Source: a virus
Virus record (IMG/VR): IMGVR_UViG_3300029725_000150
Span: 2,142 to 66,141 of that record
DNA length: 64,000 bases
Direction: 5' to 3' (one strand)
The position numbers were made by a program, and so were the translations under genes. Positions within the stretch are counted from its first letter, which is position 1, and each line of letters starts with the position of its first letter. Positions 9,001-60,013 of the stretch are shown here, piece after piece. Under the pieces are notes generated by a model. That model saw only the letters and a list, made by a program, of their open reading frames with translations. It was not told the origin of the DNA and ran no database searches.

Positions 9001-12000
9001 AAGCAATTCAGGAAAAAACTTGGTTCCTCTTATAATCTCCATAATTATTTTATCCTAAAGGGGCTTCTGGAATTGAAAGAAGGTGGTCTCGGCGTATTCG
9101 TCACGTCCTCGGCTACGATGGATGGGGCCGATAGTAAGTTCCGTGAGTACGTGAGTGGGAACGGTTATGATCTGGTCGGAGCTATCCGATTGCCTAATGA
9201 CGCTTTCCAGAAAGGGGCCGGCACGAGTGTCACGGCCGACATCGTTATATTCCGTAAAAGAAAGTATGGGGAACCTTCGAATGGGATAGGGTTCGCTACT
9301 ACAACGCAAATAGGTGAAGGAACTTATATGGAGGACGGGGATAAAAGGAGCAAGCCTATCATGGTTAACGAGTATTTCTCCAATCATCCCGATATGATGT
9401 TAGGTGATATGATGACCGCTTATGACGCTGGTAGCGGAGGTCTATATAGTGGAGCGTCCCAGACATTGAAAGCCAAACCCGGGGCCGATTTAAGCAAGGA
9501 GCTATTTAACGCTATTGATAACTTACCAAAGAATATCCTATCAGGTGTTGTAGAGACTAAAGGGCCGGAGGTTGTGGGTGACTCCACTTTGAAAGATGGT
9601 ACTATTACCGTCCAGAATGGCAATGTCTTTGTTTTAGATGGAGAGTCGTTAAAACCGATTAAGGCAAATCCTACGTTCGTTCATAATGGTAAGACCCGGA
9701 AAATAGCGGATGCGGTAAATGATTACAATGATATAAAGAAAAATCTATACGATCTTATCCATGATGAGCAAACAAAGGGTGTGGACCCCGAGCCCGCGAG
9801 GAAAAGGCTAAACAAAGTATATGATGCTTTCGTGTCCAAATATGGGACACTTAACAGGAACAAGGCTTTGGACGATATTTTCGCCGAGGATGTTGAGCAT
9901 GGATTACCCTTCTCTTTGGAAACCGTTAGAAGGGTACCTTCCACGACCGGAAAATCTATGGTATGGGAAGTCTCGAAAGCGGATGGTATCTTGAATAAGC
10001 GTGTAAGTTATCCATTCGAGCTACCGACAAAAGCGGATAATGTCTTGGATGCCGTCAATATAAGCAAGTCATATAAAGGTAATATTGATATACCTTATAT
10101 CTCGGAGATAACGGGTATGGATGAGGTGAACGTGACAAACGAGATACTAGAGAAGGGAATTGCTTATAGGGATCCTGTTACCGGAAATATAATAGATAAG
10201 AGCGAATATCTCTCTGGAAACGTAAAAGATAAGTTGGTAGAGGCTAAGGCGGCCTTGGAAGATCATCCGGAGTTTCAAAAAAACGTGGATGACTTGGAAG
10301 CCGTACAGCCAGAACGTATACCCTATGGTGAGATAAGTTATCGACTGGGGACTACATGGATCCCGTCTGAGTTTATAAATAATTTCGCTGATAATGTACT
10401 GGGTATATCTTACGCTAACGCTAATTTTATCCCGGAGATCGGTGAGTATATTCTTGATAAGAGGGCGTTCATAACCGATTACGCTAAAGCCGGTCAATTC
10501 AAGACTGAGAGAATGGACGCTATAGACGTGTTCAAGGCCGCTCTTAACCAACGTAAACCCAAGGTTTATGACGAGATTAAATATTATGAGGACGGTAAGC
10601 AGAAAACGAGAAGGGTCGTAAACGAGCAGGAGACACAGGCCGTTGCCGAGAAAATATCCGACATGTCCGATAAGTTTGTGGAGTATATTGATTCTAAAAC
10701 GATGTTCCATGGTCGTATTGAGGACGTGTATAATGATAAATATAACAACTATGTACTAAAAAAGTATGACAAACCGGTTTTTGAGCATTATCCTAACGCT
10801 AATAAGAATATAACGCTTAGGGATCACCAGAGCAAGGCGGTGCAACGTTGTCTATCCGAGAGCACGTTACTCGCTCACCAAGTCGGTACGGGAAAGACCT
10901 TTACCATGATTACGTCCGCTATGGAAATGAGACGGCTAGGTATAGCGAAGAAACCCATGATCGTTGTCCAAAACGCTACCCTAGAGGATTTCGTCCGTGA
11001 CTTTTATAAACTGTATCCTTCCGCTAAGATTCTATCTCCGACAAAGGAGGAGCGTAATGCCGATAATAGGACAAGGCTGTTCAATCTTATAGCTACCGGA
11101 GATTTTGACGCTATCGTTGTCCCACAGTCATTCATGGCGTTTATCCCGGATAGCGAGGAAAGGAAAAAGGCATATATCCAAAAGCGTATAGATGATTTTG
11201 AGGAGGCTGTCGATCGCATAGAAGACAAGGCTTTACAGGAGAGATTGAAAAGGGAGGCCAAAAGTATGCGTGATTCTCTGGAAGGTATAAAGAAAGGGAA
11301 AAACGTAAAGGGCAAGGCAAAGACTGCGGAGACTATCACGGCCAAGACGGAGCGTATTCTTGACAGGCGGACTGATAATGTCATGACGTTTGAGCAAATG
11401 GGTGTTGACGCTTTGTTCATCGACGAGGCGCATAATTATAAGAAGATCGGGTTTCCAAGCAAGATGTCGAACGTTAAAGGTATCGATACGAGCGCGTCAC
11501 AAAGAGCTAATAGTATGTTGCTAAAAGCCCAATGGATATCTGAGAATAATGGTGGTCGAAACGTGGTTCTGGCAACCGGTACCCCTATCACTAATACAAT
11601 GGCAGAGGTCTGGACTATGATGAATTTCGTGGCACCCGATATCCTAGACGCATATAATATCAATAGCTTTGACGAGTTCGCTACCACTTTTGGAACGGTT
11701 GAGCCATCATTGGAGTTTACCGCTACCGGTAACTTTAAGATAGCCGAGAGGTTCAAGAGCTATACGAATGTCCCGGAGCTTATAAAGGCGTTCAGGAGCC
11801 ATACGGACGTTGTCTTGACTGAGGATGTCAAGGAGTTCAAGGAAGACAAGAATATCCCTAAGTTGAAAGACAATAAGATGACCAATGTCATTGTCGAGAA
11901 GAACGAGGACTTGGAGGATGTCATGCAAACCCTTATCAAGGAATTAGAGGATTATAACAAATTGACAGGAAAAGAGAAGAAGGATAAGAGCGCACTACCC

Positions 12001-15000
12001 TTGGTCGTGTTCAGCAAGGCTAAACAGGCTGCGATTGACCTTCGCTTGCTTAATCCTACATTTCCCGACAATCCTGATAGCAAGACAAACAAGGTGGTCG
12101 ATAACGTGTTGAGATTATATAAGGAGAGCGATAAGGACAAAGGCACGCAACTTATATTCTGTGATAGTTATCAATCCCCTTCTGAAACTCCAAAAATGGA
12201 TTTATTCGATGTCGATTTATCTGTTCCTCAGTTTAATTTGTACAACGATATAAAGGAAAAGCTTATCAAGGGAGGTATTCCGTCTAATCAGATAGCTATC
12301 GTTGGCAATTATGAGGGAGAAAGGAGAAACGCCTTGTTCGATAAGGTCCGTAATGGGGATGTGCGCATTCTTATTGGAAGCACGGAGAAAATGGGAGTGG
12401 GTGTCAACGTGCAAGATCGTCTATTCGCCCTGCATCATATTGACGCTCCAATCAGGCCTATGGATTTTGAGCAACGCAACGGTCGTATCTTACGACAAGG
12501 AAACTTATACGCTACATGGGATAAACCGGTGAACATCGTCACATATGGCGTTAAAGGTACCCTTGACGCTACCGCCTATGACAGGCTTCGTATAAAACAA
12601 AACTTCATCAACCAGATGATGAAAGGCGATATATCGTCTCGTGTCATGGAGGAGCAAGACGATAGTGATCCGTCTGGAATGACCTTTAGTGAGATGGCGG
12701 CGACGTTATCCGGAGATAAGACCGCCCAACTACTGTTTGTGGCACAGAACAAGTTAAAGAAACTGCAAAACTCCAAGAGGAGCGATCTTAACAGTAAGTC
12801 TTCCATGCGTGACTCTATATCTAATTCCAAACTTAGGATACAAGAATACAACAGCCGGAAGGATATCATGGAAAGGAACGCCAATATCGTAAAAGAGAAC
12901 TTCCCTGATGGGGTTGAGTCCGTGACTGTTAAAGGCAATACTTTCAGCGATGGTATATCGAATGAGCTTACGCCCATTATTGATGATTACTATGATAGAT
13001 ATACGCTTGACAGAAACACCCCTCCTCTGAAAATCAGTCTCAATGGAGGAAAAGGCGAGGCAATCGTGCATTTCAATGAAGGAATGATGGTCTATAGCTT
13101 ATATTTAGGAAAGGAAAAACTGGTTGAGAATCGTGATTTTAGCGGCGGCAAGGGTTTGATGGCTAGCATTGACAGGCAGTTGGGGATTCCCGCTAAATCC
13201 GTCTCAGATATAGCCGCTAAAATAAAGGCAGAGGAAAACAAGATAGCGGGATTAGAGGAAGCCGTTAAGAAACCGTGGGGAAAAGAGGATGAACTTAATG
13301 CGGCTCAGGCAGAGGTTAATGATCTGCAGAGACAATTAGTTGAAAAAGCTAAAGCTGAGGATATTCAGTTAGAATCAACTCTTGACGTTGATGGTACGTT
13401 GGTAAAAGAGGAAGGAGAGACTCGATTTCGATTCATGGGAGTAGATACAACTAATAATCAGGATAATGTAAGTTCTATTGAATCCTCAATCAACGATTGG
13501 TCAAACAAGCTTAATACCCCTGTCAGGGTAATCCATGACGTGGACGATATAAACGATACGGATGAGAATATGTTGGCCCGTAAGAGAGATTCCAAAGGCT
13601 GGTATGACACTTCTACTGGGGAGATAGTCATAGTATCACCTAATTCCACGTCCGTAGGTGACGCTCAAAGGACTTTCCTCCATGAGGTGGTAGGGCATCA
13701 TGGGTTACGTGAGCTATTCGGGGATGATTTCGATACTTTCCTTGATAACGTGTATCGGAACGCCAACGAGGATATCCGGAAAAATATCATTGACCGGACT
13801 AAAGGCAATCCTCTTAACTTGCGTGAGGCTACAGAGGAATACATCGCTGAATTAGCGGAACGTGGTTTCGATAACAAGGCCGAGCGTTCGTTATGGGAAA
13901 AGATCAAGGACTCTTTTCTTGATATGTTGAGAAAGGCCGGTATTAGCCTTGATTTCAAGTTATCGGATAATGACCTTCGTTATATCCTCTGGAGAAGCTA
14001 TAAGAACTTGGAGCAAGGAAACTTGATGGATGTAGCCGAGGATATCGTGATGAGAAATAGATTAAGTCTTAACAATATAAATTTGAACGAAAATGGATCA
14101 ATCGCAAGAGATATTGAACCTGAAAAAGGAAAACAACCTTCTGAAACAAAAGGTACTGGAAGGGAACTCGAGACAATCGATGGCGTTGATGAGAACGGAA
14201 ACGAAAGTGAACGAGACCATATCGACAAACCAAGGGGAGTTGAAAACGCTATTGACGGAACTGAAAACGCAACTGACCGAAATGGAAAAAAGACTGACGG
14301 CCAAGTTGACAACGATGGAGACCAACTTGGCGGAGGAGATACGGGCGATAGGAACGGAAGTGTCCGGGATGGAATCGGCGGTGAGCGGACTGTCATCGGA
14401 CGTGCAGGATCTGAAAACAAGGGTAGAGGCGTTGGAGAAAGCGTAAGGGAAAAGACGGATGATTTCGCTTTCGCAGAGAAAACAATCCGTTTTAGGGAGA
14501 ACGCACGGAATGAGTCGGTATTGTTCGCTGATAATGATATCCAAGTAGTAGAGAAACAGGTAGGTTCCGCCAAAGATCAATATGAGCGTACCCTATCTAC
14601 ATCATCCTATCAATTTCAGGAGGCGTTTCAGGATTCTATGCTAGGGCTTAAAACATTGCAGGATGCCGTGGCAAAGGCAACGAGGAGTCGTATATTGGAT
14701 TATGAGAACGCTTATATGGCCGAGAATGCCCTTTCCTCTGTTAATGAAGCTGAGTTCAACGCTTATAGGAAAGCGGCTTTCGAGCCTATCTTAAAAGCGA
14801 TCTCACGTTTGGAAAAGATGGGATCCTCCATTGATGAGATAAGGGATTACCTTATAACCAAGCATGGTATTGAGCGTAACAGGGAAATGGCCGTTAAACG
14901 AGCGTTGTCACAAAACGCGGAAACATATAAATCCCTGCTTGACGAGTATATCGGGAGAAGGAATGAGATACGTGAGAACGGCGGGTCTTGGGAAGAGCAG

Positions 15001-17556
15001 CAATCAGAAATGGATAGGCTTGCCGAGGAATACGGAGCTAATCTTTCTGATGATTTCAGCGGATTCACGTCCATGTATCCTAACGAGGATAACACGGGGT
15101 ATGATCCGGATTCCGCAAGGAGATACGTATTGGATTACGAGTCAAGATATGATACATCGGAATTATCGGCCTCTGTCAAAAGAGCCACTGACGCTATATT
15201 GGCAAAGCAACGGGATAGCGGGCTTATGAGCCAAAATACGTTTGATTCGATCAGCGATATGTATCAGTTCTATGTGCCTTTGCGTGGATGGGAGGAAACT
15301 ACGGCAGATGAGGTTTACGCTTATCTTACATCCGAAAGCCAGACGTTCAACGCCCCTATAAAGACTGTCGTTGGGCGAAAGAGCAAGGCTGACGATCCTA
15401 TAGCGACGATCGCTAATATGGCAGAGAGTGGAATCATGCAAGGGAATAGGAACTTGATGAAGCAAAAGTTTTTGACAATGGTGCAAAACCATAAGACGGA
15501 TCTCGTGAGCGTAAGCGAAATGTGGGTTCGTCTTGACGAGGCTTCCGGTGAGTGGATCGCCGTTTTCCCGGATATACCATCTAACGCCAATCCGGAACAG
15601 GTGGAGTCTATCGTGGAATCTTTCAACAAACGCATGGAGGAGCTATCCAATGAAAAAGGATCTAATGTCAGGCGTTCAAGGGATGCTATAGGGATACCTT
15701 ACAAGATATTGCCAAAGGACTTGAAGGAGCATCAAGTGATCGTAAAGAGAGCTGGCAAAGAATACGTGCTTACCATAAACGGGAACCCAAGGGCCGCTCA
15801 AGCGTTGAACGGGCTTACAAACCCGGATAATACGAAAGGATGGTTCGGTACCTTGGAGAGATACGCCGGATGGCTGAACCGTAACTTGGCGGCTAACTTT
15901 ACGACACGTAACCCGAATTTCATGGTAAGTAACTTCCTCCGTGACGCTCTTTATTCGAATACTACCGTATGGGTCAAGGAAAGTCCTGTTTACGCTTGGA
16001 AGTTCAATAAGAATTTCGCTAAGGTAAACCCGATCAATATGTATCGTCTGGTCAAGGGGTATGAGAACGGTACGTTGGATATGAGCGATCCCTTGAATAA
16101 GGCATACCATGATTTTGTAATGAGAGGAGGAGAGACCGGATACACCAATTTGAGAGACGTGGAAGCCAAGAAGAAGGCGATCCAAAAAGAGCTTCAATAC
16201 TCCAAGCAAAAGGTATCTATCGGAAAGGCTTTGAAAATACTAGGCGAATGGATGGACTTGTTCAATAAGAGCGTCGAGAATTGCGCTAGGTTCGCCGCGT
16301 TCCTTACTTCTAGGGAAATAGGGCGGAGCATGGATAAATCTATTTATGACGCTAAGGAGATATCCGTAAACTTCAATAAGAAAGGGGCGGGTTCAAAATT
16401 CTTGAATACTGAGGGGCAGACCAAGATAGGTAACGCTAGCGCTTTCACGTCCGGATTGTCAAGATCCATGTATGTATTTTGGAACGCTGGTGTACAAGGT
16501 ATGTATAATTTCGGAAGGCTGGCCAAGGATAATCCCAAGAAATTCTTGGGGTTAGCGTCCTCTTTCTATTTACTTGGCACTATCATGCCTATGATCGCTG
16601 CCGTTTTTGGGGATGATGAAGATGATGATTACTACGATCTTCCGGAATACGTGAGACGTAATAATATCTGTTTCCGTAACGGTGGAGGAAATTGGATTAC
16701 AATTCCTATGCCCATAGAGTTAAGGGCTATATATGGACTAGGAGAAATGTCTTCTGGAATAGTTTCCGGAAAGGAGAAGTATACCGATAAAAAGATGGCC
16801 ATGAAGATAGCGGAGCAAATGTCACAGGTTCTTCCTTTGGACATGATGGAGGGAGGTGGAGGATTCTCCGCTTTCGTCCCAAGCTCGGTAAAGCCATTGA
16901 TTGAGGCCGGAGATAACAAGGATTGGACAGGTTTGCCTTTATATAAGGATAACGACTTCAACAAGGGTATGCCGGAATGGACAAAGGCTTTTAAGAGCGT
17001 GGATCCCGCTATATTGGCAATGACTAAATATGCCAATGAACTGACCGGAGGAGATAAATACACTACAGGTACCGTTAACCTAAACCCAGCCATTATAGAA
17101 CATATATTGGACGGCTATTTCGGAGGTATTGAGGCTACGCGTTCCCAGATGGTCAAATCCGCTGAAACCGCTTGGGGTAGTCGTGATTTTGACTGGAGGA
17201 ATATCCCTGTAGGGAACCGTCTTATAAAAAGTGGTGATGAGCGGACGAAAAAGAAAGCCATAGATAACGCTTATTATGAGAATTTGGAAGAAATGGATAA
17301 GATCGGACAAAGATTGAGAGGATATCGTAAAGAATTGTCTAATCCACAGAACGATAGTTTTGATATAGCAGAGTATCAGAAAAAATTGAATGATCTTATG
17401 ATGAGCGATGAATATCGTGGATATGTAGAGTTTAATAATCTTAACAAATTGTATCAATCAATGGGTGAGTATTTGAAGAAGGTAGATGATGAAAGATTGG
17501 AAATGGAGTTATACGATTTGAAAGCAATGATGAATGAGATAGCTAATGGTAAATAG
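3028..17556 (+). CDS. giant multidomain polyvalent protein (4842 aa): pyrophosphatase-like + N6-adenine DNA methyltransferase + SNF2 helicase + HExxH zincin-like domain; likely virion-injected anti-restriction/anti-defence protein
   Basis: A 14.5-kb uninterrupted frame. Methyltransferase motif I EPAMGIGNIIG, motif IV ITNVPFG, and ADIVIFRKRK after it. SNF2 helicase motifs LAHQVGTGKTFTM (Walker A), LFIDEAHNYKK (DEAH-type box) and GSTEKMGVGVNVQ...FEQRNGRILRQGN (motifs V and VI). YGYIRGTKGVDGDHIDVF resembles the family I pyrophosphatase signature. HEVVGHHG is an HExxH motif. The start may instead be the ATG at 3073 (MDSNVKHL...). Confidence 0.85.
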   Translation: MKEEQKIQTKNTAGFMDSNVKHLYDAMISQGYTGLGDFSNFEGKMKDSGKRRMVYDYLIQDDYFSEIGDFSKFESALGYSPAERKDYVSQSSVNPAPIALRQEVDVPMKDQSEYVNPWTNSPDYNFESLRKKGKIETATPPPPTEYEKDSSLMNTWAGDAIQKLNAGGADLGAGIFGVLDKAAKGLESATGGLIPRGGAFKDISDRFKADAEFSRARSNRYNGKDFTDLWKEGNYMGAIGDIALQGVESLPMSIGAMAATMAGAPAAGLAGIGSIVASQKYDDLDQNNPNMGEFAKVSNAILTGTAESLSEMLGAGVSKAWMSTLFKTLGKEKAQEAIKRGIMGKMQEFYKKFGMFFEPVNEGIEEVSSTLAENITDKITGADPERDLTDGVLQSFVYGMGGGAYFTGAGALAKGAQYVADKIGGKQAQQPITDSNVTDQGVGTPPLLTKSRFAEAEEEGRNMTDPGNIRTASKKMEETRLSLSEMVPGLASTIESYVDDKASEAQVMSLLDGVNADARPLAEEFYADYLRISGLQDRIGEEIDNEVETYVANNITPYVTTNPDGQSIVTTATLSEGNVERPVYVRSIEGDKAVISDNGQDRMVSVKRLSDIVEQDAGYMRRTYEDQLLATRQSELDMTMHHNPKTQLPKPGLIVWNGDNAFILQGQDENGDWIAQPAAYDRETGQVTAKNGSSPAMPITENEILDLQDAIYDAQQVNVVSPKDDNVASADAEITSAPPVEDAINQPTSEIETESAIDQIAQPSNVENPSMVMREDGTPDFVSSGTDMALDFLYDKYGDKMPRKIEVTRKSFDESLKKASDALGKAQEAYDDAPIGKEDKPEAALIKARQEYEAIKVEADFWANLDDDIKEASKKPGDVIAKEISVIGDPMSGEELAAMMLANGAIKLTRDSYKKETGAGNNETARMFGLFASPEKGGVNIERAGEILELADRENGTNFFDENDTNAGRDAIIEVLSSSHTRGDLIDYVKRNREAIAERERQAEYNAYAEWCEENYHMSPEEYEAYEESMVRDFSEKQLTDEERGELDSQIVDEIQAIIDEQNEIDAILAQNKPIENENIEGNDESGGDGLREGGGEVLPREQLDQTGRAGETEAREQVGTGIDRTDGATQEGASIIDKIRYSSPVEITGNEISPSEDLREYKKNALEYGKSLRGEYINKDSGKTIFLGKNAIKEVLHHDYKNVEQLQSIAAIPKIIENAIFVTSQENTDSKVNAESFDYYVCGLRIGDVDYTVRAVFVKPKDGDRYYDHKLTRIEKGKLIDSLFGTTPGFNQTTSLVSGSEDKKLISILQDKVFEKDAKEAKSFVAPSPKENENPLDYAERIVEAKRLHDEELKVDTNPSEAQKEAGNYKKGHVKINGFDVSIEQPAGSVRSGKDASGKEWSQAMNNTYGYIRGTKGVDGDHIDVFLGPDMNSDMVYVVDQVNTDGSFDEHKVMMGFSSLEDARSAYLSNYEEGWQGLGNITGVALDEFKKWIDSSIRKTKPFSDYKMTKENPNLSLRDIVESSGGHIVVGNPGLTVYKKETVAKKTNGNKLVSEERYEELKKRMRAKLGGQMNMGIDPEILAIGTEMAVYHIEKGLRKFSDYSKAMIDDLGDAIRPYLKSFYNGARDLPEVGDNGWDKDMTTYEDVRSFDVANFDKPVPDIMDAAETVIKETEIAVQASAAEKKIKNSRKKRTDNKDKPLPLYGNDLFTPNNIKDNEQGNSRADQGVGRKAREEDRGSERGGDRGGVHGSDVLDTERGRGIPISDSDKRPVVRNQNNFSFPEKGIELPSGDISKLKANIEAIETLKDVEDGQGKPTPEQQAKMSRYVGWGGLAEALNEAKYNARDNNWTKDRNWNDKYLRYYEKLKSLLSKEEFDSAVRSTTTSHYTPSEVVESLWGITEKLGFKGGNISEPAMGIGNIIGMMPRSISENSSISGFEIDSLSGRMAKALYPDANIKVQGYEKAFSPNSKDLVITNVPFGKNAPYDKVLDKQFRKKLGSSYNLHNYFILKGLLELKEGGLGVFVTSSATMDGADSKFREYVSGNGYDLVGAIRLPNDAFQKGAGTSVTADIVIFRKRKYGEPSNGIGFATTTQIGEGTYMEDGDKRSKPIMVNEYFSNHPDMMLGDMMTAYDAGSGGLYSGASQTLKAKPGADLSKELFNAIDNLPKNILSGVVETKGPEVVGDSTLKDGTITVQNGNVFVLDGESLKPIKANPTFVHNGKTRKIADAVNDYNDIKKNLYDLIHDEQTKGVDPEPARKRLNKVYDAFVSKYGTLNRNKALDDIFAEDVEHGLPFSLETVRRVPSTTGKSMVWEVSKADGILNKRVSYPFELPTKADNVLDAVNISKSYKGNIDIPYISEITGMDEVNVTNEILEKGIAYRDPVTGNIIDKSEYLSGNVKDKLVEAKAALEDHPEFQKNVDDLEAVQPERIPYGEISYRLGTTWIPSEFINNFADNVLGISYANANFIPEIGEYILDKRAFITDYAKAGQFKTERMDAIDVFKAALNQRKPKVYDEIKYYEDGKQKTRRVVNEQETQAVAEKISDMSDKFVEYIDSKTMFHGRIEDVYNDKYNNYVLKKYDKPVFEHYPNANKNITLRDHQSKAVQRCLSESTLLAHQVGTGKTFTMITSAMEMRRLGIAKKPMIVVQNATLEDFVRDFYKLYPSAKILSPTKEERNADNRTRLFNLIATGDFDAIVVPQSFMAFIPDSEERKKAYIQKRIDDFEEAVDRIEDKALQERLKREAKSMRDSLEGIKKGKNVKGKAKTAETITAKTERILDRRTDNVMTFEQMGVDALFIDEAHNYKKIGFPSKMSNVKGIDTSASQRANSMLLKAQWISENNGGRNVVLATGTPITNTMAEVWTMMNFVAPDILDAYNINSFDEFATTFGTVEPSLEFTATGNFKIAERFKSYTNVPELIKAFRSHTDVVLTEDVKEFKEDKNIPKLKDNKMTNVIVEKNEDLEDVMQTLIKELEDYNKLTGKEKKDKSALPLVVFSKAKQAAIDLRLLNPTFPDNPDSKTNKVVDNVLRLYKESDKDKGTQLIFCDSYQSPSETPKMDLFDVDLSVPQFNLYNDIKEKLIKGGIPSNQIAIVGNYEGERRNALFDKVRNGDVRILIGSTEKMGVGVNVQDRLFALHHIDAPIRPMDFEQRNGRILRQGNLYATWDKPVNIVTYGVKGTLDATAYDRLRIKQNFINQMMKGDISSRVMEEQDDSDPSGMTFSEMAATLSGDKTAQLLFVAQNKLKKLQNSKRSDLNSKSSMRDSISNSKLRIQEYNSRKDIMERNANIVKENFPDGVESVTVKGNTFSDGISNELTPIIDDYYDRYTLDRNTPPLKISLNGGKGEAIVHFNEGMMVYSLYLGKEKLVENRDFSGGKGLMASIDRQLGIPAKSVSDIAAKIKAEENKIAGLEEAVKKPWGKEDELNAAQAEVNDLQRQLVEKAKAEDIQLESTLDVDGTLVKEEGETRFRFMGVDTTNNQDNVSSIESSINDWSNKLNTPVRVIHDVDDINDTDENMLARKRDSKGWYDTSTGEIVIVSPNSTSVGDAQRTFLHEVVGHHGLRELFGDDFDTFLDNVYRNANEDIRKNIIDRTKGNPLNLREATEEYIAELAERGFDNKAERSLWEKIKDSFLDMLRKAGISLDFKLSDNDLRYILWRSYKNLEQGNLMDVAEDIVMRNRLSLNNINLNENGSIARDIEPEKGKQPSETKGTGRELETIDGVDENGNESERDHIDKPRGVENAIDGTENATDRNGKKTDGQVDNDGDQLGGGDTGDRNGSVRDGIGGERTVIGRAGSENKGRGVGESVREKTDDFAFAEKTIRFRENARNESVLFADNDIQVVEKQVGSAKDQYERTLSTSSYQFQEAFQDSMLGLKTLQDAVAKATRSRILDYENAYMAENALSSVNEAEFNAYRKAAFEPILKAISRLEKMGSSIDEIRDYLITKHGIERNREMAVKRALSQNAETYKSLLDEYIGRRNEIRENGGSWEEQQSEMDRLAEEYGANLSDDFSGFTSMYPNEDNTGYDPDSARRYVLDYESRYDTSELSASVKRATDAILAKQRDSGLMSQNTFDSISDMYQFYVPLRGWEETTADEVYAYLTSESQTFNAPIKTVVGRKSKADDPIATIANMAESGIMQGNRNLMKQKFLTMVQNHKTDLVSVSEMWVRLDEASGEWIAVFPDIPSNANPEQVESIVESFNKRMEELSNEKGSNVRRSRDAIGIPYKILPKDLKEHQVIVKRAGKEYVLTINGNPRAAQALNGLTNPDNTKGWFGTLERYAGWLNRNLAANFTTRNPNFMVSNFLRDALYSNTTVWVKESPVYAWKFNKNFAKVNPINMYRLVKGYENGTLDMSDPLNKAYHDFVMRGGETGYTNLRDVEAKKKAIQKELQYSKQKVSIGKALKILGEWMDLFNKSVENCARFAAFLTSREIGRSMDKSIYDAKEISVNFNKKGAGSKFLNTEGQTKIGNASAFTSGLSRSMYVFWNAGVQGMYNFGRLAKDNPKKFLGLASSFYLLGTIMPMIAAVFGDDEDDDYYDLPEYVRRNNICFRNGGGNWITIPMPIELRAIYGLGEMSSGIVSGKEKYTDKKMAMKIAEQMSQVLPLDMMEGGGGFSAFVPSSVKPLIEAGDNKDWTGLPLYKDNDFNKGMPEWTKAFKSVDPAILAMTKYANELTGGDKYTTGTVNLNPAIIEHILDGYFGGIEATRSQMVKSAETAWGSRDFDWRNIPVGNRLIKSGDERTKKKAIDNAYYENLEEMDKIGQRLRGYRKELSNPQNDSFDIAEYQKKLNDLMMSDEYRGYVEFNNLNKLYQSMGEYLKKVDDERLEMELYDLKAMMNEIANGK
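7138..7515 (+). other. inorganic-pyrophosphatase-like domain inside the giant protein
   Basis: TYGYIRGTKGVDGDHIDVFLGP versus the family I pyrophosphatase core NYGYI.HT...DGDP.DVLV; the three Asp residues are conserved. Confidence 0.4.
8683..9264 (+). other. gamma-class N6-adenine DNA methyltransferase domain inside the giant protein
   Basis: EPAMGIGNI (AdoMet-binding motif I), NVPFG (NPPY/F-type catalytic motif), and ADIVIFRKRK at the end of the domain. Confidence 0.7.
10822..12620 (+). other. SNF2/SF2 helicase domain inside the giant protein
   Basis: DHQSKAV...GTGKTFTM, FIDEAH, and the C-terminal helicase motif QRNGRILRQGN. Confidence 0.75.
13599..13740 (+). other. HExxH zincin-like metallopeptidase motif region inside the giant protein
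   Basis: GWYDTSTGEIVIVSP...TFLHEVVGHHGLRELFGDD. Confidence 0.4.
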
Positions 17557-17564
17557 GTGAAGTG

Positions 17565-17593
17565 GCGGATGGCGTTGGTGCCATCCGCTTTAT
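17565..17593 (+). terminator. rho-independent terminator after the giant gene
   Basis: GCGGATGGC-gttggt-GCCATCCGC followed by TTTAT, 9 nt after the stop codon. Confidence 0.6.
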
Positions 17594-17597
17594 AGTA

Positions 17598-18008
17598 TTA
17601 ATCTTCATTTACATTGAATAGTGCTACGATTATAGATATGAATGTAATTAGTACTAATATGTTTAGACTGATTGCTAATATCCATTGTAATACACTGAAA
17701 TCGCCATTTATGCTATACGGTAATTTTAAGGAAGACCAACAACCGAAGTATAATATAAATGGTATTGATGCGTATTTAGCTATTTTGCATCCTTTAGATA
17801 CTAATATTAAAGGATAAGCTATAAAAGTAGCTACACTTCCGATCATAGTAGTCATGAGTCCACCGGCTATTAATATATATACAATAAAGAGCATCCATCC
17901 CACGCCCATAATGTAGGGTGTCAAATAATAGAATAATAACCATAGCAAATATGCTGTTATGTGACTTAGCAATATGGATCCTATTGTTCTTAAAAATGTA
18001 ATAATCAT
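17598..18008 (-). CDS. multi-pass membrane protein (136 aa) in a 27%-GC island
   Basis: Four hydrophobic helices. Its start overlaps the stop of the upstream gene (ATGA). GC content is far below that of the flanking DNA. Confidence 0.5.
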   Translation of the reverse strand: MIITFLRTIGSILLSHITAYLLWLLFYYLTPYIMGVGWMLFIVYILIAGGLMTTMIGSVATFIAYPLILVSKGCKIAKYASIPFILYFGCWSSLKLPYSINGDFSVLQWILAISLNILVLITFISIIVALFNVNED

Positions 18009-19015
18009 AATATTGTCTTGTCTTTATAAAATGAAAAATATGCTTTAGTTTTATTTTGTACTATACGCCAATATGTAAGAGATCTTTTAATGTCTGTTTT
18101 TGAAATGTCTATAACAGGTTCTTCTGCTGGATTTAACAAGGTGTATATAATACCATTTGGCAAGAATGTTTTGAAACTTAGTTCTTGTCTGAAATAGGAT
18201 ATCATTTTCCTTATTCTATCTTCGGATTCTAGTCTGTCATTCCATGATAATTTAAAATATTCAACTAATGGCGTTTTTATACGACTAATAAATCTATAGT
18301 CATATGTTTTATCATATTCTAATAGCGTATATACTAAAGATGCTCTATCTATAATAGCCCATGCGATGTTGTTATTAAGTATTTTGAATGTATTTAAGTC
18401 GTTTTCTGACACTAAAAAAAGGCAGTCTGTTTTCAATATTTCATTTGCGCAAAGTAACATTTTATCAAATCTATTCCATCCATAATCTTTTTTTACAAAA
18501 GGTTCATATTGAATGCCTACAGGGTTTATTTCTTTATCTGCTAACCTAAAATATATATCATATTTTTTTCTATGTATTTTTAAAATTCCTTTATTACATT
18601 TTGGACAAACCCAAAAATCTTTTATTATATCCTTATATATAAGATTTGTGCTACCGCACTCTATACATGAGTCTACAGTGCTGCATTTAATTAGTTCTTT
18701 AAATTTAACGTATAGATTTATTTTATTAATTAATGATTGTGCATCTTGCTTGTCTTTATTGAATTTGAATATCTTTCTATTCAGTCTCTCTAATTTCTTA
18801 TTTTCTATGCTTATTGTGTTTTTTATATCGTTAATGTTTATGCCTTTTTGTATAGGTACAAATGTTTTGCAATTTATGCACCAAGCGTGCCTTATTTCTG
18901 GGTATGGCAAGTCTTCCAACCCATAAATCCTAGGGTATATGTATTTATAATTAGTTGGATTATATTCTTGTTCATAATCACATGTATCACATTTAGCATA
19001 ATTATATATTGGCAT
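18005..19015 (-). CDS. Cys-rich protein with two zinc-ribbon motifs (336 aa) in a 27%-GC island
   Basis: CDTCDY...CINC and CIECGS...CPKC motifs. Translationally coupled to the downstream membrane protein. Confidence 0.55.
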   Translation of the reverse strand: MPIYNYAKCDTCDYEQEYNPTNYKYIYPRIYGLEDLPYPEIRHAWCINCKTFVPIQKGININDIKNTISIENKKLERLNRKIFKFNKDKQDAQSLINKINLYVKFKELIKCSTVDSCIECGSTNLIYKDIIKDFWVCPKCNKGILKIHRKKYDIYFRLADKEINPVGIQYEPFVKKDYGWNRFDKMLLCANEILKTDCLFLVSENDLNTFKILNNNIAWAIIDRASLVYTLLEYDKTYDYRFISRIKTPLVEYFKLSWNDRLESEDRIRKMISYFRQELSFKTFLPNGIIYTLLNPAEEPVIDISKTDIKRSLTYWRIVQNKTKAYFSFYKDKTIL

Positions 19016-19137
19016 AACTTTATTTTAATTTGGATTTTTTACAAAATTATCCAATCTTCACATCCGTTATCCCGCAGGAGGCATGTTTTGCAGCATATTT
19101 TACTTTTAGTGTTATCCCGAGGAATAGTAAAAAATAG

Positions 19138-19173
19138 AAAACTCCCCAAATCCTCACGGACAAGGGAGTTTTT
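19138..19173 (+). terminator. hairpin GAAAACTCCC/GGGAGTTTTT with a TCCTCACGGAC loop, followed by a T-rich run
   Basis: 10-bp inverted repeat with a 17-nt loop, then TTTATTATTT. Confidence 0.4.
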
Positions 19174-19265
19174 ATTATTTAACATAATCTATATGAATGG
19201 TTTTCAGACAACCTTAAACGATCCGATTCTCACGGACAGGAACGTTATAATATCTAAATCCATAT

Positions 19266-19523
19266 CTAAACAAAGACATACTTAATCATCATTGCCGATC
19301 CTCCCGGAATAGCAACGGTGGGTATATCCGTATTAAAATGCTTCCCAATACCACCCAAGGGAAGCGGGAAATATTTATTCAAACTATATTTTATGCCAAT
19401 TGGCATAAATATACCTCTGGTTCTCACGAAAGAGCGGTATGACTTTGATAAAGTTATTTTATGAATACAACCTAGTGTAATATCTTTAAGTAATGACTCC
19501 AGTCCATCACGGATGAGAGCCAT
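19266..19523 (-). CDS. hypothetical protein (85 aa)
   Basis: ORF track; downstream of the terminase gene on the minus strand. Confidence 0.35.
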   Translation of the reverse strand: MALIRDGLESLLKDITLGCIHKITLSKSYRSFVRTRGIFMPIGIKYSLNKYFPLPLGGIGKHFNTDIPTVAIPGGSAMMIKYVFV

Positions 19524-19882
19524 AAGGGGTTATAAATATATAACATATACACATGAAAAAACGTGGCACCGTCACAACTACCAAGACCCGGCGTCCCCAC
19601 GCCAACATAACAGGTAGTAAGCAACGGCCCACGTCTTATATATAGATTATATATACAAATAACGTGGGCGTATTGTTGCTATCGGCTCCCTGTTATGTTT
19701 ATAAATTTGGGGAATTTAGGTCTTTATAGGAGACGATATCTTTAACGCCACAATGTGTGTCACGTCTTACATTCTAATCAGTGACTACGCGAATATACTC
19801 TCTTTATTTTATATTAGTAAAAAATAAGTCGTATTTTATTTATCTAATATTGATTTTTACAGGGAAAACGTTCATGCGCAAG

Positions 19883-21997
19883 CTATAAACTCGACTCATT
19901 TTTTGGATATGAATCGAGATATCCCGTTGATTCTTCTTTGATTATAGAAGGCTTAGGCATATCCTCTGATATGAGCGCTCCTATCATGTCTGTCATCAAT
20001 ATATCGTCGTGATTGCCACGACCGGGAATATTCCCGTAACTACCGTCCGGACGTTGCTCGTATTTGGATGCCTCCTTATACATGCGCTCATCCGGGTCTA
20101 TGAACATATCGTCCTCGAACGCCACTATGAAATTATCCACCATGTCCTGCTTGGTCTTCTTGTTGGTCTGGAAGCCTATCTTCTTGTATATGCCGTTCCT
20201 TATGTCCTCGGGATCCGTCGCCGCACGCATGTAAAGATTGGGGTAGATATCCTCTATCTTTTTCAGTATGCCACGAATATGATCGCCTTCCTCCACGAAC
20301 TCGGATGCCTCTGATTTTTTCTTATCAAACGTATTGCTCTCGAAGGCGAGAAGGGCGTTCTTGTAGTATCTGGCGATCTTGACGGCTTTGTAGGCGAGCC
20401 AGTCATATCGTATATGACCGTGCCATCTGGCTACCACCTCCGGCTTTCCTCCGCTGAATCGTAAATTCCACCTGTTTATAACCGTTATACATGACGGGTC
20501 TGAGTTCTTGCTACGTCCACCGACATCGACGATGACAAGATACTCGTTGGATGTCCTTGTATCATCGGGCCTCTTCCAGATTCTCAACAGGCCGTTCGGA
20601 TTCTTGGTGAGAATTATCCTCTTGGTCTTCTCTGATTGGGATATGTCGCCAATGAACTCCGGGGGTGATACGTATCTTTCCCGCATCACCTCGATCGTAT
20701 AGATATTGAACACGAGATTACCGGAATACTTGAAACACTCGACATCATCGGATGGTGCCTCGGATGCCATCGATGCGTGATCATGGAACGAGGCCCTTTT
20801 CTTGATATACCATTTGATGTGCTCCAGCGTAGCTCCTTTTTCCCATAGAGACCATAGATACTGTCCCGGCTCGCTATTGTCATTAGGGGAGGTCGTGACA
20901 TCCCTTCCCTCTAATAGATCCAGTATGAAAAGCCGGGTCTCTTTCTTGTCCTTGAATCTTATCATGTCGTTCTCGATAAAGAAGAACGGTATGAATATCG
21001 CCTTACGGGATGACGTGCCCTCCTTGGCCATTTGGTACTCATCATAGAAATAACCGGCCATGCCATTAGCTGTAGACTCGGAGATCTCCATGGTCAACGG
21101 TCTCTCCAATATATTCGAGTCTATGTTTGTTATAACCTGCTCCGCCGATTTGCCATCCGTTGTTTTCCAGTAGGCTACCTCCGAGAAGTGGGCCATGGCA
21201 TAGTCCATACCACGTGTTGACTCGAAATTCTCATAAGATGCCACGGTTATCACGTTATCACGTACCTTGTTCCCGGACGGGTCGGTGATTATGGAGTCGG
21301 ACGCCGAATGCTCGTAAGGGGCGAATTGTAGCTTGTCAACACCATATATAAATCCCGGGATATTATCGAGAACCTTTTTATACATGGCCTTGATACGTTT
21401 GGCGGTATCTTTCGTCTGGGCTATAATTACGGAATACCATCCTTCCATGACGAATAGCTGTATCCACGCCATATAGAGCTGTACCAAGGTGGAACCTCCC
21501 CATTGCCGGGCTTTCAATAATATTATACGGATCGGGACTCCCTTATGCCTCATTTCCTCCAGAACGGATAGCACGTAACGTTGGGCGTAATTAAGCTCGA
21601 AGGGGATCATTTCTCCCGCCTCTTTCGACTTGATCTTAAATAACGAGAAAAAGGCGAAGGACGGGTCTCTCGAGCAACGAGCCCAAAATAGCATGTTGGC
21701 CACGTCCTCCTCATTTATCCCATCTGAATCCGGGTACAGCTCGTTGAACCTTATCGTGTAGTCCTTTATGGAACCAGCTTTCAGAACATCTTGATACAGA
21801 TCGTTCTTGAAAACCTCCTCGGTAAGCCACTGCACCCTTATGGGGTAATCATCTATGACAACCCTATGGATATGCCCCTCCATTCCACGCCCCGTGAATT
21901 GGTCGTGCGTGCCGAATATATTTTTCAGCCTCTTGTTATTCTCGGCCAATATAGACTCAACCTCTTCCGTGAACGCTAATTTTCTGTATGACTCCAT
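19883..21997 (-). CDS. terL: terminase large subunit
   Basis: 704 aa. KARQWGGST is a Walker-A-like P-loop. The C-terminal YLVIVDVGGRSKNSDPSCITV looks like an RNaseH-fold nuclease motif. Acidic stretches typical of TerL. Confidence 0.6.
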   Translation of the reverse strand: MESYRKLAFTEEVESILAENNKRLKNIFGTHDQFTGRGMEGHIHRVVIDDYPIRVQWLTEEVFKNDLYQDVLKAGSIKDYTIRFNELYPDSDGINEEDVANMLFWARCSRDPSFAFFSLFKIKSKEAGEMIPFELNYAQRYVLSVLEEMRHKGVPIRIILLKARQWGGSTLVQLYMAWIQLFVMEGWYSVIIAQTKDTAKRIKAMYKKVLDNIPGFIYGVDKLQFAPYEHSASDSIITDPSGNKVRDNVITVASYENFESTRGMDYAMAHFSEVAYWKTTDGKSAEQVITNIDSNILERPLTMEISESTANGMAGYFYDEYQMAKEGTSSRKAIFIPFFFIENDMIRFKDKKETRLFILDLLEGRDVTTSPNDNSEPGQYLWSLWEKGATLEHIKWYIKKRASFHDHASMASEAPSDDVECFKYSGNLVFNIYTIEVMRERYVSPPEFIGDISQSEKTKRIILTKNPNGLLRIWKRPDDTRTSNEYLVIVDVGGRSKNSDPSCITVINRWNLRFSGGKPEVVARWHGHIRYDWLAYKAVKIARYYKNALLAFESNTFDKKKSEASEFVEEGDHIRGILKKIEDIYPNLYMRAATDPEDIRNGIYKKIGFQTNKKTKQDMVDNFIVAFEDDMFIDPDERMYKEASKYEQRPDGSYGNIPGRGNHDDILMTDMIGALISEDMPKPSIIKEESTGYLDSYPKNESSL

Positions 21998-59859: not shown

Positions 59860-59939
59860 ATCCTCACGGACGGAGACCTGCTTTGTAAAAATTGTAACTT
59901 TGATTTTCTGATTGAATAAGCACCCCTAGGGGTGAAACG

Positions 59940-60013
59940 TGCTCCCTGCCGGGCTTGAACCGGCGACCCTAACATTATGAGTGTTGCGCTCTAACCAACT
60001 GAGCTAAGGGAGC
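59940..60013 (-). tRNA. tRNA-Met (anticodon CAU), elongator-like; could be tRNA-Ile2 if lysidinylated
   Basis: Minus-strand sequence GCTCCCT-TA-GCTC...GAGC-G-CAACA-CTCATAA-TGTTA-GGGTC-GCCGG-TTCAAGC-CCGGC-AGGGAGC-A. 7-bp acceptor stem, D stem GCTC/GAGC, T arm GCCGG/CCGGC with a TTCAAGC loop. 74 nt, no encoded CCA. Confidence 0.75.

What the first reader, a model, noticed from the sequence alone, without database searches (positions are those of the whole stretch)
17557..19300. 27%-GC island with a translationally coupled zinc-ribbon protein and membrane protein: candidate accessory (moron) or exclusion module
GC content drops from about 45% to about 27% exactly between the terminator of the giant gene (17565-17593) and the hairpin at 19138-19173. 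The island carries a minus-strand two-gene operon. One gene is a 336-aa protein with two CxxC...CxxC zinc ribbons and no recognisable enzymatic motif. The other is a 136-aa four-helix membrane protein whose start overlaps the first gene's stop. A cytoplasmic sensor paired with a small membrane effector is a recurring layout of abortive-infection and superinfection-exclusion systems. The compositional break argues for recent horizontal acquisition. The upstream region also holds two direct repeats, GTTATCCCG(C/A)GGA at 19056-19071 and 19111-19126, and two copies of the CACGGAC motif.
Basis: partly seen in the sequence, partly recalled or inferred. Interest (0 to 1): 0.65.

Follow-up and report, generated by a model that had tools for sequence, protein, structure and literature searches.

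The report
Swappable accessory cassette in Bacteroides phage
The AT-rich island is a real, dispensable two-gene cargo cassette (a double zinc-ribbon protein plus a small four-helix membrane protein) plugged into a hypervariable slot of a Bacteroides phage behind a fixed promoter. The zinc-ribbon protein belongs to a rare, unnamed family that elsewhere sits right behind prophage repressors, which makes a role in excluding other phages plausible but unproven.

Summary
Window 17598-19015 (minus strand) carries two overlapping genes, a 336-aa protein (ZnR) and a 136-aa protein (TM136), at 25-30% GC against about 45% in the flanks.

- **The slot.** In 62 related IMG/VR phage contigs the same position holds at least 8 unrelated low-GC cassettes. 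All sit behind the same conserved promoter block, and none of the 62 carries these two genes.
- **ZnR was added later.** Relatives L003-L008 have the TM136 homologue starting where ZnR starts here. ZnR is therefore an exact gene-sized insertion into an older cassette.
- **ZnR.**
  - It has no Pfam, PHROG, NCBIfam or PADLOC match and no convincing fold match.
  - Exhaustive HMMER finds 32 other cluster representatives, at 25-45% identity over the matched stretches.
  - These genes are always AT-rich and lie beside a small membrane protein in 7 of 8 contexts.
  - In five of the eight they lie in the operon of a CI- or LexA-type prophage repressor.
- **TM136.** Its family co-occurs with ZnR in one unrelated prophage, but each gene also occurs without the other.

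Best reading: a moron-type accessory cassette, probably envelope-directed phage exclusion or abortive infection. The layout resembles lambda cI-rexA-rexB, but the genes are not Rex family members. The function is inferred, not shown.

Side finding: a roughly 700-nt conserved, strongly folding non-coding element lies just upstream.

The parts
17565..17593 (.). GC-rich hairpin between the convergent giant gene (stop at 17556) and the cassette. It is a terminator for the giant gene on the plus strand and marks the 3' boundary of the cassette.
   Evidence: -19.7 kcal/mol (z -3.65) on the plus strand, followed by a U-rich tail. On the minus strand it gives -18.5 kcal/mol (z -5.75) with no U-tract, so termination of the cassette transcript here is inferred only.
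17598..18008 (-). TM136: a 136-aa protein with four transmembrane helices, the second gene of the cassette.
   Evidence: - ORF.
- Hydropathy.
- AlphaFold model with four helices, pLDDT 78.
- Homologues at 40-92% identity.
- Same slot, without ZnR, in L003-L008.
- In prophage lysogeny regions L144-L147 and L012.
- No family hits.
18005..19015 (-). ZnR: a 336-aa cytoplasmic protein. It has zinc ribbon 1 (C9, C12, C46, C49), a helical hairpin (61-109), zinc ribbon 2 (C117, C120, C137, C140) and a C-terminal all-alpha domain (178-330). It is the first gene of the cassette.
   Evidence: - ORF.
- Family of 33 cluster representatives.
- Conserved cysteines.
- AlphaFold model, pLDDT 87.9.
- No family hits.
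- No convincing fold match.
- Exact gene-sized insertion relative to L003-L008.
19016..19126 (-). Leader plus the conserved promoter platform. It contains a Bacteroides-type -7 box, TAATTTTG, at 19049-19042, which is 26 nt upstream of the ATG. It also contains the two GTTATCCCG copies (19066-19074 and 19111-19119; CGGGATAAC on the coding strand).
   Evidence: - Motif match: (consensus match only).
- Repeat uniqueness.
- The block ...CATGCCTCCTGCGGGATAACGGATGTGAAGATTGGxTAATTTTG... is conserved in front of seven different cassette types, and homology ends 8-18 nt before each ATG.
- 63 nt (19034-19096) are 92% identical even in L005-L008.
19138..19173 (-). Hairpin with a U-tract upstream of the promoter platform. 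On the minus strand it looks like an intrinsic terminator that insulates the cassette from upstream transcription. It is also the 3' end of the conserved non-coding element.
   Evidence: -21.1 kcal/mol, z -4.1, followed by CUAUUUUUU. It is conserved in all 36 aligned relatives.
19130..19830 (-). Adjacent conserved non-coding element of about 700 nt. It is a candidate structured RNA or a long structured 3'UTR of the terminase operon. It forms the fixed left flank of the cargo slot and is not part of the low-GC cargo.
   Evidence: - 92-99% identical in 38 unique copies. Neighbouring terminase proteins fall to 42% identity.
- Minus strand folds at -210.5 kcal/mol (z -6.9) against -181.8 on the plus strand.
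- 8 of 7247 pair cells are broken on the minus strand against 844 on the plus strand.
- No compensatory changes.
- No Rfam hit.
- The 85-aa ORF inside it is intact in only 9 of 38 copies.

Best explanation
**Shown**
- The island is a moron-type cargo cassette in a hypervariable slot of a Bacteroides podovirus-like phage. The slot lies between the 3' end of the giant polyvalent-protein gene and a fixed expression platform made of a conserved non-coding element, a terminator hairpin and a conserved promoter block.
- Related phages carry at least eight unrelated AT-rich cassettes at the same place. Each begins 8-18 nt after the conserved block.
- In this lineage the slot first held the four-helix membrane protein TM136. 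The ZnR gene was later inserted exactly between the leader and the TM136 start codon. This created an ATGA stop/start overlap, so the two genes now form one operon.
- ZnR belongs to a rare, AT-rich, unnamed family. In five of the eight context types its members lie in the operon of a CI- or LexA-like prophage repressor. In 7 of 8 they lie next to a small membrane protein, and often next to a Cys-rich lipoprotein.

**Inferred**
- The cassette is expressed independently of the structural genes and acts at the cell envelope to interfere with other phages, either by superinfection exclusion or by abortive infection.
- The cytoplasmic ZnR would use its zinc ribbons and helical domain to sense an infection cue or to regulate or chaperone its partner. 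The small membrane protein would be the effector.
- This is the same operon logic as lambda cI-rexA-rexB, without homology to Rex.
For: **Composition and anatomy**
- GC profile, ORFs and overlap.
- Hairpins.
- Promoter-like box.
- The same platform precedes all cassette types.

**Dispensability and slot variability**
- 62 IMG/VR relatives share the upstream element.
- They carry other cassettes: J-domain membrane protein plus a 158-aa membrane protein, a 161-aa Cys-lipoprotein, a 57+201+69 aa set, a 441-aa protein, a 385-aa protein, and a pair that looks HicA/HicB-like by eye.
- Slot GC has a median of 0.34 against 0.46 for the rest of each locus.
- None carries ZnR, TM136 or TM172.

**Insertion of ZnR**
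- Window 18015-19033 is missing in L003-L008, and both flanks are homologous.

**ZnR family is real**
- 33 representatives.
- Conserved cysteines.
- Confident model.

**Contexts**
- L010, L018, L148 and L155: an HTH repressor-like gene is followed directly by ZnR (start and stop overlap in all four), then a membrane protein 16-30 nt downstream or overlapping.
- L016: S24 repressor, then ZnR, then a single-helix membrane protein, then a Cys-lipoprotein.
- L012: S24 repressor, then a TM136-family protein, then a Cys-lipoprotein, then ZnR, then integrase.
- Sources.
- ZnR genes are AT-rich whatever the host GC, for example 0.30 against 0.56 in L010.
- The L012 membrane protein is a true TM136-family member (profile E 1.3e-17).

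**Comparison with Rex**
- Rex layout and mechanism are taken from PMC12894663.
Against: - No sequence or fold similarity to any known defence, exclusion or Rex protein.
- The pair is not obligate.
  - TM136 occurs without ZnR, with a 172-aa membrane protein in L003-L008 and with a J-domain protein in L144-L147.
  - ZnR occurs with at least two other unrelated membrane-protein families and once alone between two IS copies.
- In the window no repressor lies next to the cassette. No integrase was found among ORFs of at least 250 aa. Expression from a prophage is therefore not established for this phage.
- Neighbours of homologues gave only one weak hit to a candidate defence model.
- Small membrane proteins are common in phage accessory regions, so adjacency is weak evidence.
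- The promoter is a consensus match that is not enriched in the window.
Confidence: 0.5

Rival explanations
1. ZnR and TM136 are two independent morons that happen to share one transcript. TM136 would be a stand-alone envelope protein, for example a Sie-type injection blocker like P22 SieA or T4 Imm. ZnR would be a separate regulator of the lysis-lysogeny switch or of induction. Precedents are 434 Hex and the second role of RexA at PRM.
For: - TM136 sat in the slot before ZnR and functions there without it.
- In five of the eight context types ZnR lies in a repressor-headed operon, and in four of them its start overlaps the repressor's stop.
- ZnR's membrane neighbours belong to unrelated families.
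- Hex-type genes co-transcribed with a repressor exist (PMC3564112, listed).
- RexA also modulates the switch.
Against: - ZnR is kept in this phage with no adjacent repressor, so its role cannot depend on a cognate repressor.
- The ATGA overlap with TM136 and the close spacing or overlaps with membrane genes in homologous loci suggest coupled expression.
- The ZnR and TM136 families co-occur in two unrelated contexts at about 25-30% identity.
Confidence: 0.22
2. The cassette is counter-defence or host-takeover cargo. It would help this phage overcome host immunity or remodel the host envelope during its own infection, rather than exclude other phages.
For: - The slot lies next to the giant polyvalent protein (InPase, SNF2 helicase, ART and LPD domains). 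PMC5512222 interprets this class as injected counter-defence weaponry.
- Hypervariable AT-rich accessory regions of lytic phages often carry anti-defence genes (general knowledge).
- No integrase was found in the window.
- The nearest cultured relative, BF1-TP2, is a sewage isolate on B. fragilis.
Against: - ZnR homologues lie on the repressor strand, divergent from the early replication and recombination genes. That points to expression in lysogens rather than during lytic takeover.
- Other cassettes in the slot include a pair that looks HicAB-like by eye, together with membrane proteins and lipoproteins. This is more typical of defence or exclusion cargo.
Confidence: 0.13
3. The pair is an addiction or toxin-antitoxin-like module. 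TM136 would be a membrane-damaging toxin held in check by ZnR, serving to stabilise the element rather than to protect against phages.
For: - The layout is a tight two-gene operon with translational overlap.
- The second product is a small, very hydrophobic protein.
- A pair that looks HicAB-like by eye occupies the same slot in L172.
Against: - TM136 homologues exist without ZnR in many contigs (P0003 is listed in 79 blocks of the collection, of which 24 contigs were read), so it is not lethal on its own.
- ZnR at 336 aa is large for an antitoxin and pairs with unrelated membrane proteins.
Confidence: 0.1
4. The genes are core phage functions, such as a holin-type lysis protein with a regulator, or virion assembly proteins, that merely have odd base composition.
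For: TM136 is small with several membrane helices, as holins are.
Against: - Both genes are absent from all 62 related IMG/VR loci, of which 42 retain terminase and 32 retain the giant-gene 3' end.
- No endolysin gene is adjacent.
- There are no PHROG or Pfam structural hits.
Confidence: 0.03

Closest known systems
Lambda cI-rexA-rexB immunity operon (RexAB abortive infection), including the RexAB-type system of Pseudomonas putida prophage P1 (PMC12894663)
   Same: - A cytoplasmic protein of roughly 280-340 aa is followed by a membrane protein of roughly 140 aa with four helices, in one operon.
- In homologous loci that operon is headed by the prophage CI-type repressor.
- The genes are dispensable, horizontally mobile accessory genes.
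   Different: - No sequence similarity to RexA or RexB: Pfam and PADLOC give no hits.
- ZnR has two zinc ribbons, which RexA lacks.
- The membrane partner varies between unrelated families.
- In the window the cassette is not next to a repressor.
- No phenotype is known.
Phage morons (independent transcription units of foreign composition inserted between conserved phage genes; PMC3594210)
   Same: - It has its own promoter-like block and flanking hairpins.
- Its GC content is about 17 points below the flanks.
- Close relatives show presence/absence polymorphism.
- It lies between two conserved genes.
   Different: - The promoter is not carried by the moron. It is a fixed part of the phage backbone, shared by all alternative cassettes, so the slot works more like an expression dock.
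- Transcription has not been measured.
Hotspots of variable anti-phage cargo in phage and satellite genomes (P2/P4-type defence hotspots; general knowledge, not read here)
   Same: One position, flanked by conserved sequence, carries many mutually exclusive, unrelated cassettes. These include a pair that looks like a toxin-antitoxin system.
   Different: - The host is a Bacteroides podovirus-like phage with a giant polyvalent protein.
- No cassette here matches a known defence system.
Membrane and lipoprotein superinfection-exclusion proteins (P22 SieA, PMC10883804; T4 Imm/Sp; TP-J34 Ltp; T5 Llp; the last three from general knowledge)
   Same: They are small inner-membrane proteins or lipoproteins encoded by phages, dispensable for growth and expressed apart from the structural genes. 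ZnR neighbourhoods are rich in such proteins.
   Different: - No sequence similarity was detected.
- Those systems do not need a 330-aa cytoplasmic zinc-ribbon partner.

Membership tests
Moron (phage accessory transcription unit) | Present in some, absent from other, closely related phage genomes at the same position | tested here: met
   - ZnR, TM136 and TM172 are absent from 62 IMG/VR relatives.
- At least 8 alternative cassettes occupy the position.
- ZnR is an exact insertion relative to L003-L008.
Moron (phage accessory transcription unit) | Nucleotide composition distinct from the surrounding genome | tested here: met
   GC is 0.25-0.30 against about 0.45 in the flanks. Across relatives the slot median is 0.34 against 0.46.
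Moron (phage accessory transcription unit) | Own promoter and terminator | tested here: inconclusive
   - A conserved TAATTTTG box lies 26 nt upstream of the ATG, and a conserved block precedes every cassette.
- Hairpins lie on both sides.
- The downstream hairpin has no U-tract on the cassette strand.
- No transcript data are available.
RexAB (lambda-type abortive infection) | RexA homology by sequence or fold | tested here: not met
   - No Pfam or PADLOC hit.
- A PDB profile search finds only generic zinc ribbons.
RexAB (lambda-type abortive infection) | RexB homology | tested here: not met
   - No Pfam or PADLOC hit for TM136.
RexAB (lambda-type abortive infection) | Cytoplasmic protein plus four-helix membrane protein in one operon downstream of the CI repressor | tested here: inconclusive
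   - The window has the two-gene layout but no repressor.
- In homologous loci L010, L012, L016, L018, L148 and L155 ZnR lies in the operon headed by the repressor.
RexAB (lambda-type abortive infection) | Abortive-infection phenotype with membrane depolarisation | not testable with these tools
   This needs expression in Bacteroides and phage challenge.
Any defence system in PADLOC-DB v2.0.0 | HMM match of at least one component | tested here: not met
   - ZnR and TM136 give no families at E up to 1.
- Among neighbours of homologues there is only a weak PDC-M09B hit (E 2e-4) for a 514-aa protein in L154.
Holin / lysis cassette | Conserved in all members of the phage group and linked to an endolysin | tested here: not met
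   It is absent from the 62 relatives. No endolysin-like neighbour was found.
Rfam RNA families (for the adjacent non-coding element) | Covariance-model match | tested here: not met
   No match at E up to 1 in 17000-20500.

The most novel reading that the evidence does not exclude
ZnR-family proteins, together with their interchangeable small membrane or lipoprotein partners, form a previously unrecognised class of immunity-operon phage-exclusion or abortive-infection systems in (pro)phages from gut-type metagenomes (only the window-type phage is tied to Bacteroides). They would be functional analogues of lambda RexAB built on a new double zinc-ribbon fold. In this phage group they are delivered through a dedicated cargo dock: a conserved structured RNA, a terminator and a fixed promoter, which lets any cassette be expressed on arrival.
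Probability: 0.25. Interest if true: 0.65.

Novelty: new variant of a known kind. Interest (0 to 1): 0.5.

Why it matters
- **Little-known territory.** Few phage-encoded exclusion or defence functions have been characterised in Bacteroides, a dominant gut genus. Standard defence catalogues miss this cassette entirely.
- **A concrete candidate.** The analysis gives a testable pair of genes. It also gives a small family with unusually consistent placement behind prophage repressors, and a map of a cargo hot spot with a fixed promoter. Mining that hot spot could yield further accessory functions in gut phages.
- **If ZnR proves to be a sensor for a membrane effector.** It would add a new fold to the Rex-type logic.
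- **If not.** The slot still documents how AT-rich cassettes are exchanged at the level of single ORFs.

Tried and rejected
1. **Family scans.** Pfam, PHROG, PADLOC and NCBIfam scans of both proteins gave nothing above noise.
2. **Word-indexed protein searches.**
   - ZnR as a single sequence found only itself.
   - ZnR as a profile found only itself and P0032.
   - Only the exhaustive HMMER search found the family.
3. **Isolated phages.** tblastn of both proteins against 50,697 phage records gave no match.
4. **Fold searches.**
   - BFVD gave nothing.
   - The afdb50 library was unavailable.
6. **First DNA pattern.** A pattern on zinc ribbon 2 alone hit 120 or more unrelated zinc-ribbon genes in IMG/VR and no family member.
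7. **Specific two-ribbon pattern.**
   - It matches 16 of 16 known loci.
   - It found none in 185,579 species-representative genomes and none in IMG/VR.
   - It found 7 stretches in metagenome contigs, of which 4 are true members.
8. **The 85-aa form of TM136 (P0004).** I suspected a truncation or phase variant. The DNA is identical, so it is a gene-caller artefact.
9. **The 85-aa ORF at 19266-19523.** Rejected as a gene. It is intact in 9 of 38 copies, shows no third-position bias and has no Pfam hit.
10. **Covariation in the non-coding element.** No compensatory pairs were found.
11. **The Cys-rich lipoprotein domain.** No PDB or Pfam match.
12. **Literature.** A search for BF1-TP2 returned no paper.
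Full report

Yes.
- **ORFs.** The minus strand carries ORFs at 18005-19015 (336 aa, called ZnR here) and 17598-18008 (136 aa, called TM136). Their stop and start codons overlap as ATGA at 18005-18008.
- **GC content.** GC in 300-nt windows is 0.25-0.30 from 17600 to 19100. It is 0.42-0.49 in windows upstream of 17300 and downstream of 19850.
- **Boundaries.** The left boundary coincides with the hairpin at 17565-17593.
- **Hairpins.** Both hairpins fold much better than shuffles. The hairpin at 19173-19138 is followed by a U-tract on the minus strand. The hairpin at 17565-17593 has a U-rich tail only on the plus strand, which is the giant gene's strand.
- **Repeats.** GTTATCCCG occurs exactly twice in 64 kb, at 19066 and 19111. 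CTCACGGACA occurs exactly twice, at 19153 and 19229.

**2. What kind of genome is this?**

- **Gene content.**
  - A 4842-aa polyvalent protein at 3028-17556. Near-identical and related copies carry InPase, SNF2, LPD and ART-PolyVal domains.
  - A 704-aa ORF at 19883-21997, labelled terminase-like from synteny and a BF1-TP2 annotation note; it has no Pfam hit of its own.
  - A P22-type portal, a weak SU10-like capsid hit below Pfam's cut-off, and RtcB.
  - A Dam methylase and an FtsK/nuclease protein.
  - An IS3-type transposase at the right end.
- **Closest isolate.** The only isolated relative at the DNA level is Bacteroides phage BF1-TP2.
- **Lifestyle.** No integrase was found among ORFs of at least 250 aa.

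**3. The slot.**

- **Conserved left flank.** A stretch of about 700 nt upstream of the cassette (19130-19830) is 92-99% identical in 38 unique copies. The adjacent terminase proteins diverge to 42% identity.
- **Relatives.** A 20-mer from this stretch retrieved 62 IMG/VR contigs of 11-68 kb.
- **Conserved promoter block.** Immediately downstream of the element's terminator, every contig examined except L172 has the same promoter-like block. Its consensus is ...CATGCCTCCTGCGGGATAACGGATGTGAAGATTGGGTAATTTTGCAAAAAA (the window has GGA and GT at two positions), and it includes a Bacteroides-type -7 box, TAnnTTTG. Homology ends 8-18 nt before the first ATG of the cargo.
- **Alternative cargo.**
  - A 330-aa J-domain membrane protein plus a 158-aa membrane protein.
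  - A 161-aa Cys-lipoprotein.
  - A 57 + 201 + 69 aa set.
  - A 441-aa secreted protein.
  - A 385-aa secreted protein.
  - A pair that looks HicA/HicB-like by eye.
  - An HTH protein, among others.
  - BF1-TP2 carries a 210-aa J-domain membrane protein at this position.
- **Composition.** The slot is AT-rich whatever it holds, with a median GC of 0.34 against 0.46.
- **Dispensability.** None of the 62 loci encodes ZnR, TM136 or the 172-aa partner found in L003. The two genes are therefore dispensable cargo in a hot spot.

**4. History of this cassette.**

- In L003-L008 the TM136 homologue (64% aa, 77% nt identity) starts exactly where ZnR starts in the window. It is followed by a 172-aa membrane protein.
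- Window 18015-19033 has no counterpart in those loci, while both flanks align. ZnR is therefore an exact ORF-sized insertion between the leader and the TM136 ATG.
- The ZnR reading frame runs through the old leader (AATATTATGA) to end on the TGA that overlaps the TM136 ATG.
- The ZnR+TM136 arrangement recurs unchanged in at least 24 metagenomic contigs, including phages whose giant protein has a different domain set.

**5. What are the proteins?**

*ZnR*
- It has no hit in Pfam, PHROGs, PADLOC or NCBIfam.
- Exhaustive HMMER against 1.84 billion representatives finds 32 other cluster representatives at 25-45% identity over the matched stretches; the near-full-length ones are about 320-340 aa.
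- Of the eight cysteines, three are invariant, four are kept in at least 90% of the aligned relatives, and the eighth (C137) in most. Also conserved are Y25, Y27, P39, K128, W135, P138, C189, R224 and an N295-P296 pair: P296 in at least 90% of all 23 sequences, N295 invariant in an 8-sequence subset. No catalytic-looking motif is present.
- The AlphaFold model is confident (pLDDT 87.9, pTM 0.85). It shows ribbon 1, a helical hairpin, ribbon 2 and a C-terminal all-alpha domain.
- BFVD gives nothing, and a PDB profile search sees only generic zinc ribbons.

*TM136*
- It is a four-helix bundle with only generic fold matches.
- Its family has about ten clusters.

**6. Where do the relatives live?**

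*ZnR contexts*
- **L010, L018, L148 and L155.** An HTH repressor-like gene, divergent from the early genes where flanking sequence is available (SSB/AAA_24 in L010, RecT in L148), is followed by ZnR, whose start overlaps the repressor's stop. A small membrane protein follows.
- **L016.** S24 (LexA/CI-type) repressor, then ZnR, then an overlapping single-helix membrane protein, then a Cys-rich lipoprotein.
- **L012.** S24 repressor, then a 137-aa membrane protein, then a Cys-rich lipoprotein, then ZnR, then integrase.
- **L152.** ZnR, then a four-helix membrane protein, then a Cys-lipoprotein.
- **L014.** A single-helix membrane protein, then ZnR.
- **L154.** ZnR lies between two DDE transposase copies.

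*Links between the families*
- The L012 membrane protein is a genuine TM136-family member (profile E 1.3e-17). The L018-type membrane proteins are unrelated.
- TM136 relatives also sit in prophage lysogeny regions next to a Cys-lipoprotein and a J-domain membrane protein, near an integrase.

*Composition and rarity*
- ZnR genes are AT-rich (0.26-0.35) irrespective of the host locus. In L010 the gene is 0.30 against 0.56 for the locus.
- A family-specific DNA pattern matches 16 of 16 known loci. It finds none in 185,579 species-representative genomes or in IMG/VR and only four true members in the metagenome collection. The family is rare.

**7. Interpretation.**

*Shown*
- This is a dispensable, horizontally exchanged cassette in a hot spot behind a fixed promoter block.
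- ZnR is a later insertion.
- The ZnR family is tied to prophage repressor operons and to small envelope proteins.

*Inferred*
- The function is interference with other phages at the envelope, by exclusion or abortive infection, with ZnR as the cytoplasmic partner.
- The operon logic copies lambda cI-rexA-rexB. In that system RexA is a DNA-binding cytoplasmic sensor, RexB is a four-helix membrane channel, and both lie downstream of CI (PMC12894663).

*Limits*
- Membership in the Rex family fails on every homology test.
- The pair is not obligate. The window shows no adjacent repressor or integrase. No known defence genes cluster around the homologues apart from one weak hit.
- The rival readings are independent morons with ZnR as a switch modulator, counter-defence cargo next to the polyvalent protein (PMC5512222), a toxin-antitoxin-like addiction module, and a core lysis or structural role. 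The last is effectively excluded.

**8. Side finding: the non-coding element at 19130-19830.**

- **Not a protein gene.** The 85-aa ORF that gene callers place inside the element is intact in only 9 of 38 copies and shows no codon-position bias.
- **Strand preference.** The minus strand folds at -210.5 kcal/mol (z -6.9) against -181.8 on the plus strand. The consensus fold gives -175.8 against -142.9.
- **Stems are conserved.** Predicted stems hold 20 of 115 variable columns although they cover 382 of 801 columns. This comparison is partly circular, because the consensus fold favours conserved columns.
- **Wobble pairing.** 13 of the 20 variable pairs keep pairing through G-U. 8 of 7247 pair cells are broken on the minus strand against 844 on the plus strand.
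- **Loop insertion.** A 39-nt insertion present in most copies falls in a hairpin loop.
- **Missing evidence.** No compensatory double substitution exists in this shallow alignment and no Rfam family matches.
- **Conclusion.** A structured RNA, possibly a long 3'UTR of the terminase operon ending at the terminator at 19138, is likely but unproven.

**9. Verdict.**

- The moron reading is well supported.
- The exclusion reading is reasonable and now has contextual support, but it rests on guilt by association.
- This is a new variant of a known kind of system and is of moderate interest.

Noticed in passing
window 19130-19830 (minus strand): A non-coding element of about 700 nt is conserved at 92-99% identity in 38 unique copies, while neighbouring proteins diverge to 42%. 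It folds far better on the minus strand and tolerates only G-U-preserving changes in its stems. It carries three C-GUGA-G tetraloop hairpins and ends in an intrinsic terminator. It has no Rfam match and shows no compensatory covariation yet. It is a candidate large phage RNA or a structured 3'UTR of the terminase operon.
   Followed up: partly
window 19266-19523 (minus strand): Gene callers annotate an 85-aa ORF here in several metagenomic contigs, but it is almost certainly spurious. It is interrupted in 29 of 38 copies by a 39-nt insertion that sits in a hairpin loop. Its variable sites are spread 5/7/5 over the codon positions, and it has no Pfam hit.
   Followed up: yes
L012 5729-5983; L144 7716-7958; L016 3941-4114; L152 21-233; L010 7325-7510: A small secreted or lipoprotein domain recurs next to ZnR and TM136 homologues in prophage lysogeny regions. 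Its invariant motif is YICTG..(5)..YH....C.GL..C, and it often ends in GR..C..C. It has no Pfam or PDB sequence match and is absent from the window.
   Followed up: partly
L158 (first cassette ORF, 330 aa), L144 8436-9350, L001 (BF1-TP2) 5189-5821: J-domain (DnaJ) proteins with a membrane segment are another recurrent cargo. They occupy the same slot in relatives and lie next to TM136 homologues in prophages L144-L147. The 330-aa (L158) and 304-aa (L144) forms share a C-terminal domain; the 210-aa BF1-TP2 protein does not. Their function is unknown.
   Followed up: no
L172, cassette ORFs of 85 and 112 aa: A pair that looks HicA/HicB-like by eye (a toxin-antitoxin type) occupies the cargo slot in one IMG/VR relative. 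The identification is by eye only and was not scanned against family libraries.
   Followed up: no
L154 7135-12704: One ZnR homologue (328 aa, GC 0.26) lies between two near-identical DDE_Tnp_1_3 transposase genes, which suggests mobilisation as part of a composite transposon. A neighbouring 514-aa protein weakly matches the PADLOC candidate PDC-M09B (E 2e-4).
   Followed up: partly
window 28001-29000 and 32001-33000: There are two more low-GC stretches, 0.29 and 0.35. They lie inside the long ORFs 26442-29615 and 30296-33739. The second ORF has a SASA sialate-O-acetylesterase domain at its C-terminus. These are probably exchanged receptor-binding or depolymerase modules of tail proteins.
   Followed up: no
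window 62739-64000 and 59939-60013: An IS3-family transposase pair (HTH_Tnp_1 plus rve) runs off the right end of the window, and a tRNA-Met gene lies at 59939-60013. A small HTH protein at 61659-62087 resembles the N-termini of the repressor-like proteins in L010 and L016.
   Followed up: no
window 3028-17556 compared with L003, L139-L143: The giant polyvalent protein varies strongly in length and domain content between otherwise near-identical phages. The range runs from 3062 to 4842 aa, and SNF2 helicase versions alternate with ART-PolyVal/PBECR versions. The cassette next to it stays the same.
   Followed up: no
window 46230-47444 (minus strand): The phage encodes an RtcB-type RNA ligase (Pfam E 9e-62), which may counter host tRNA- or RNA-cleaving defences.
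   Followed up: no
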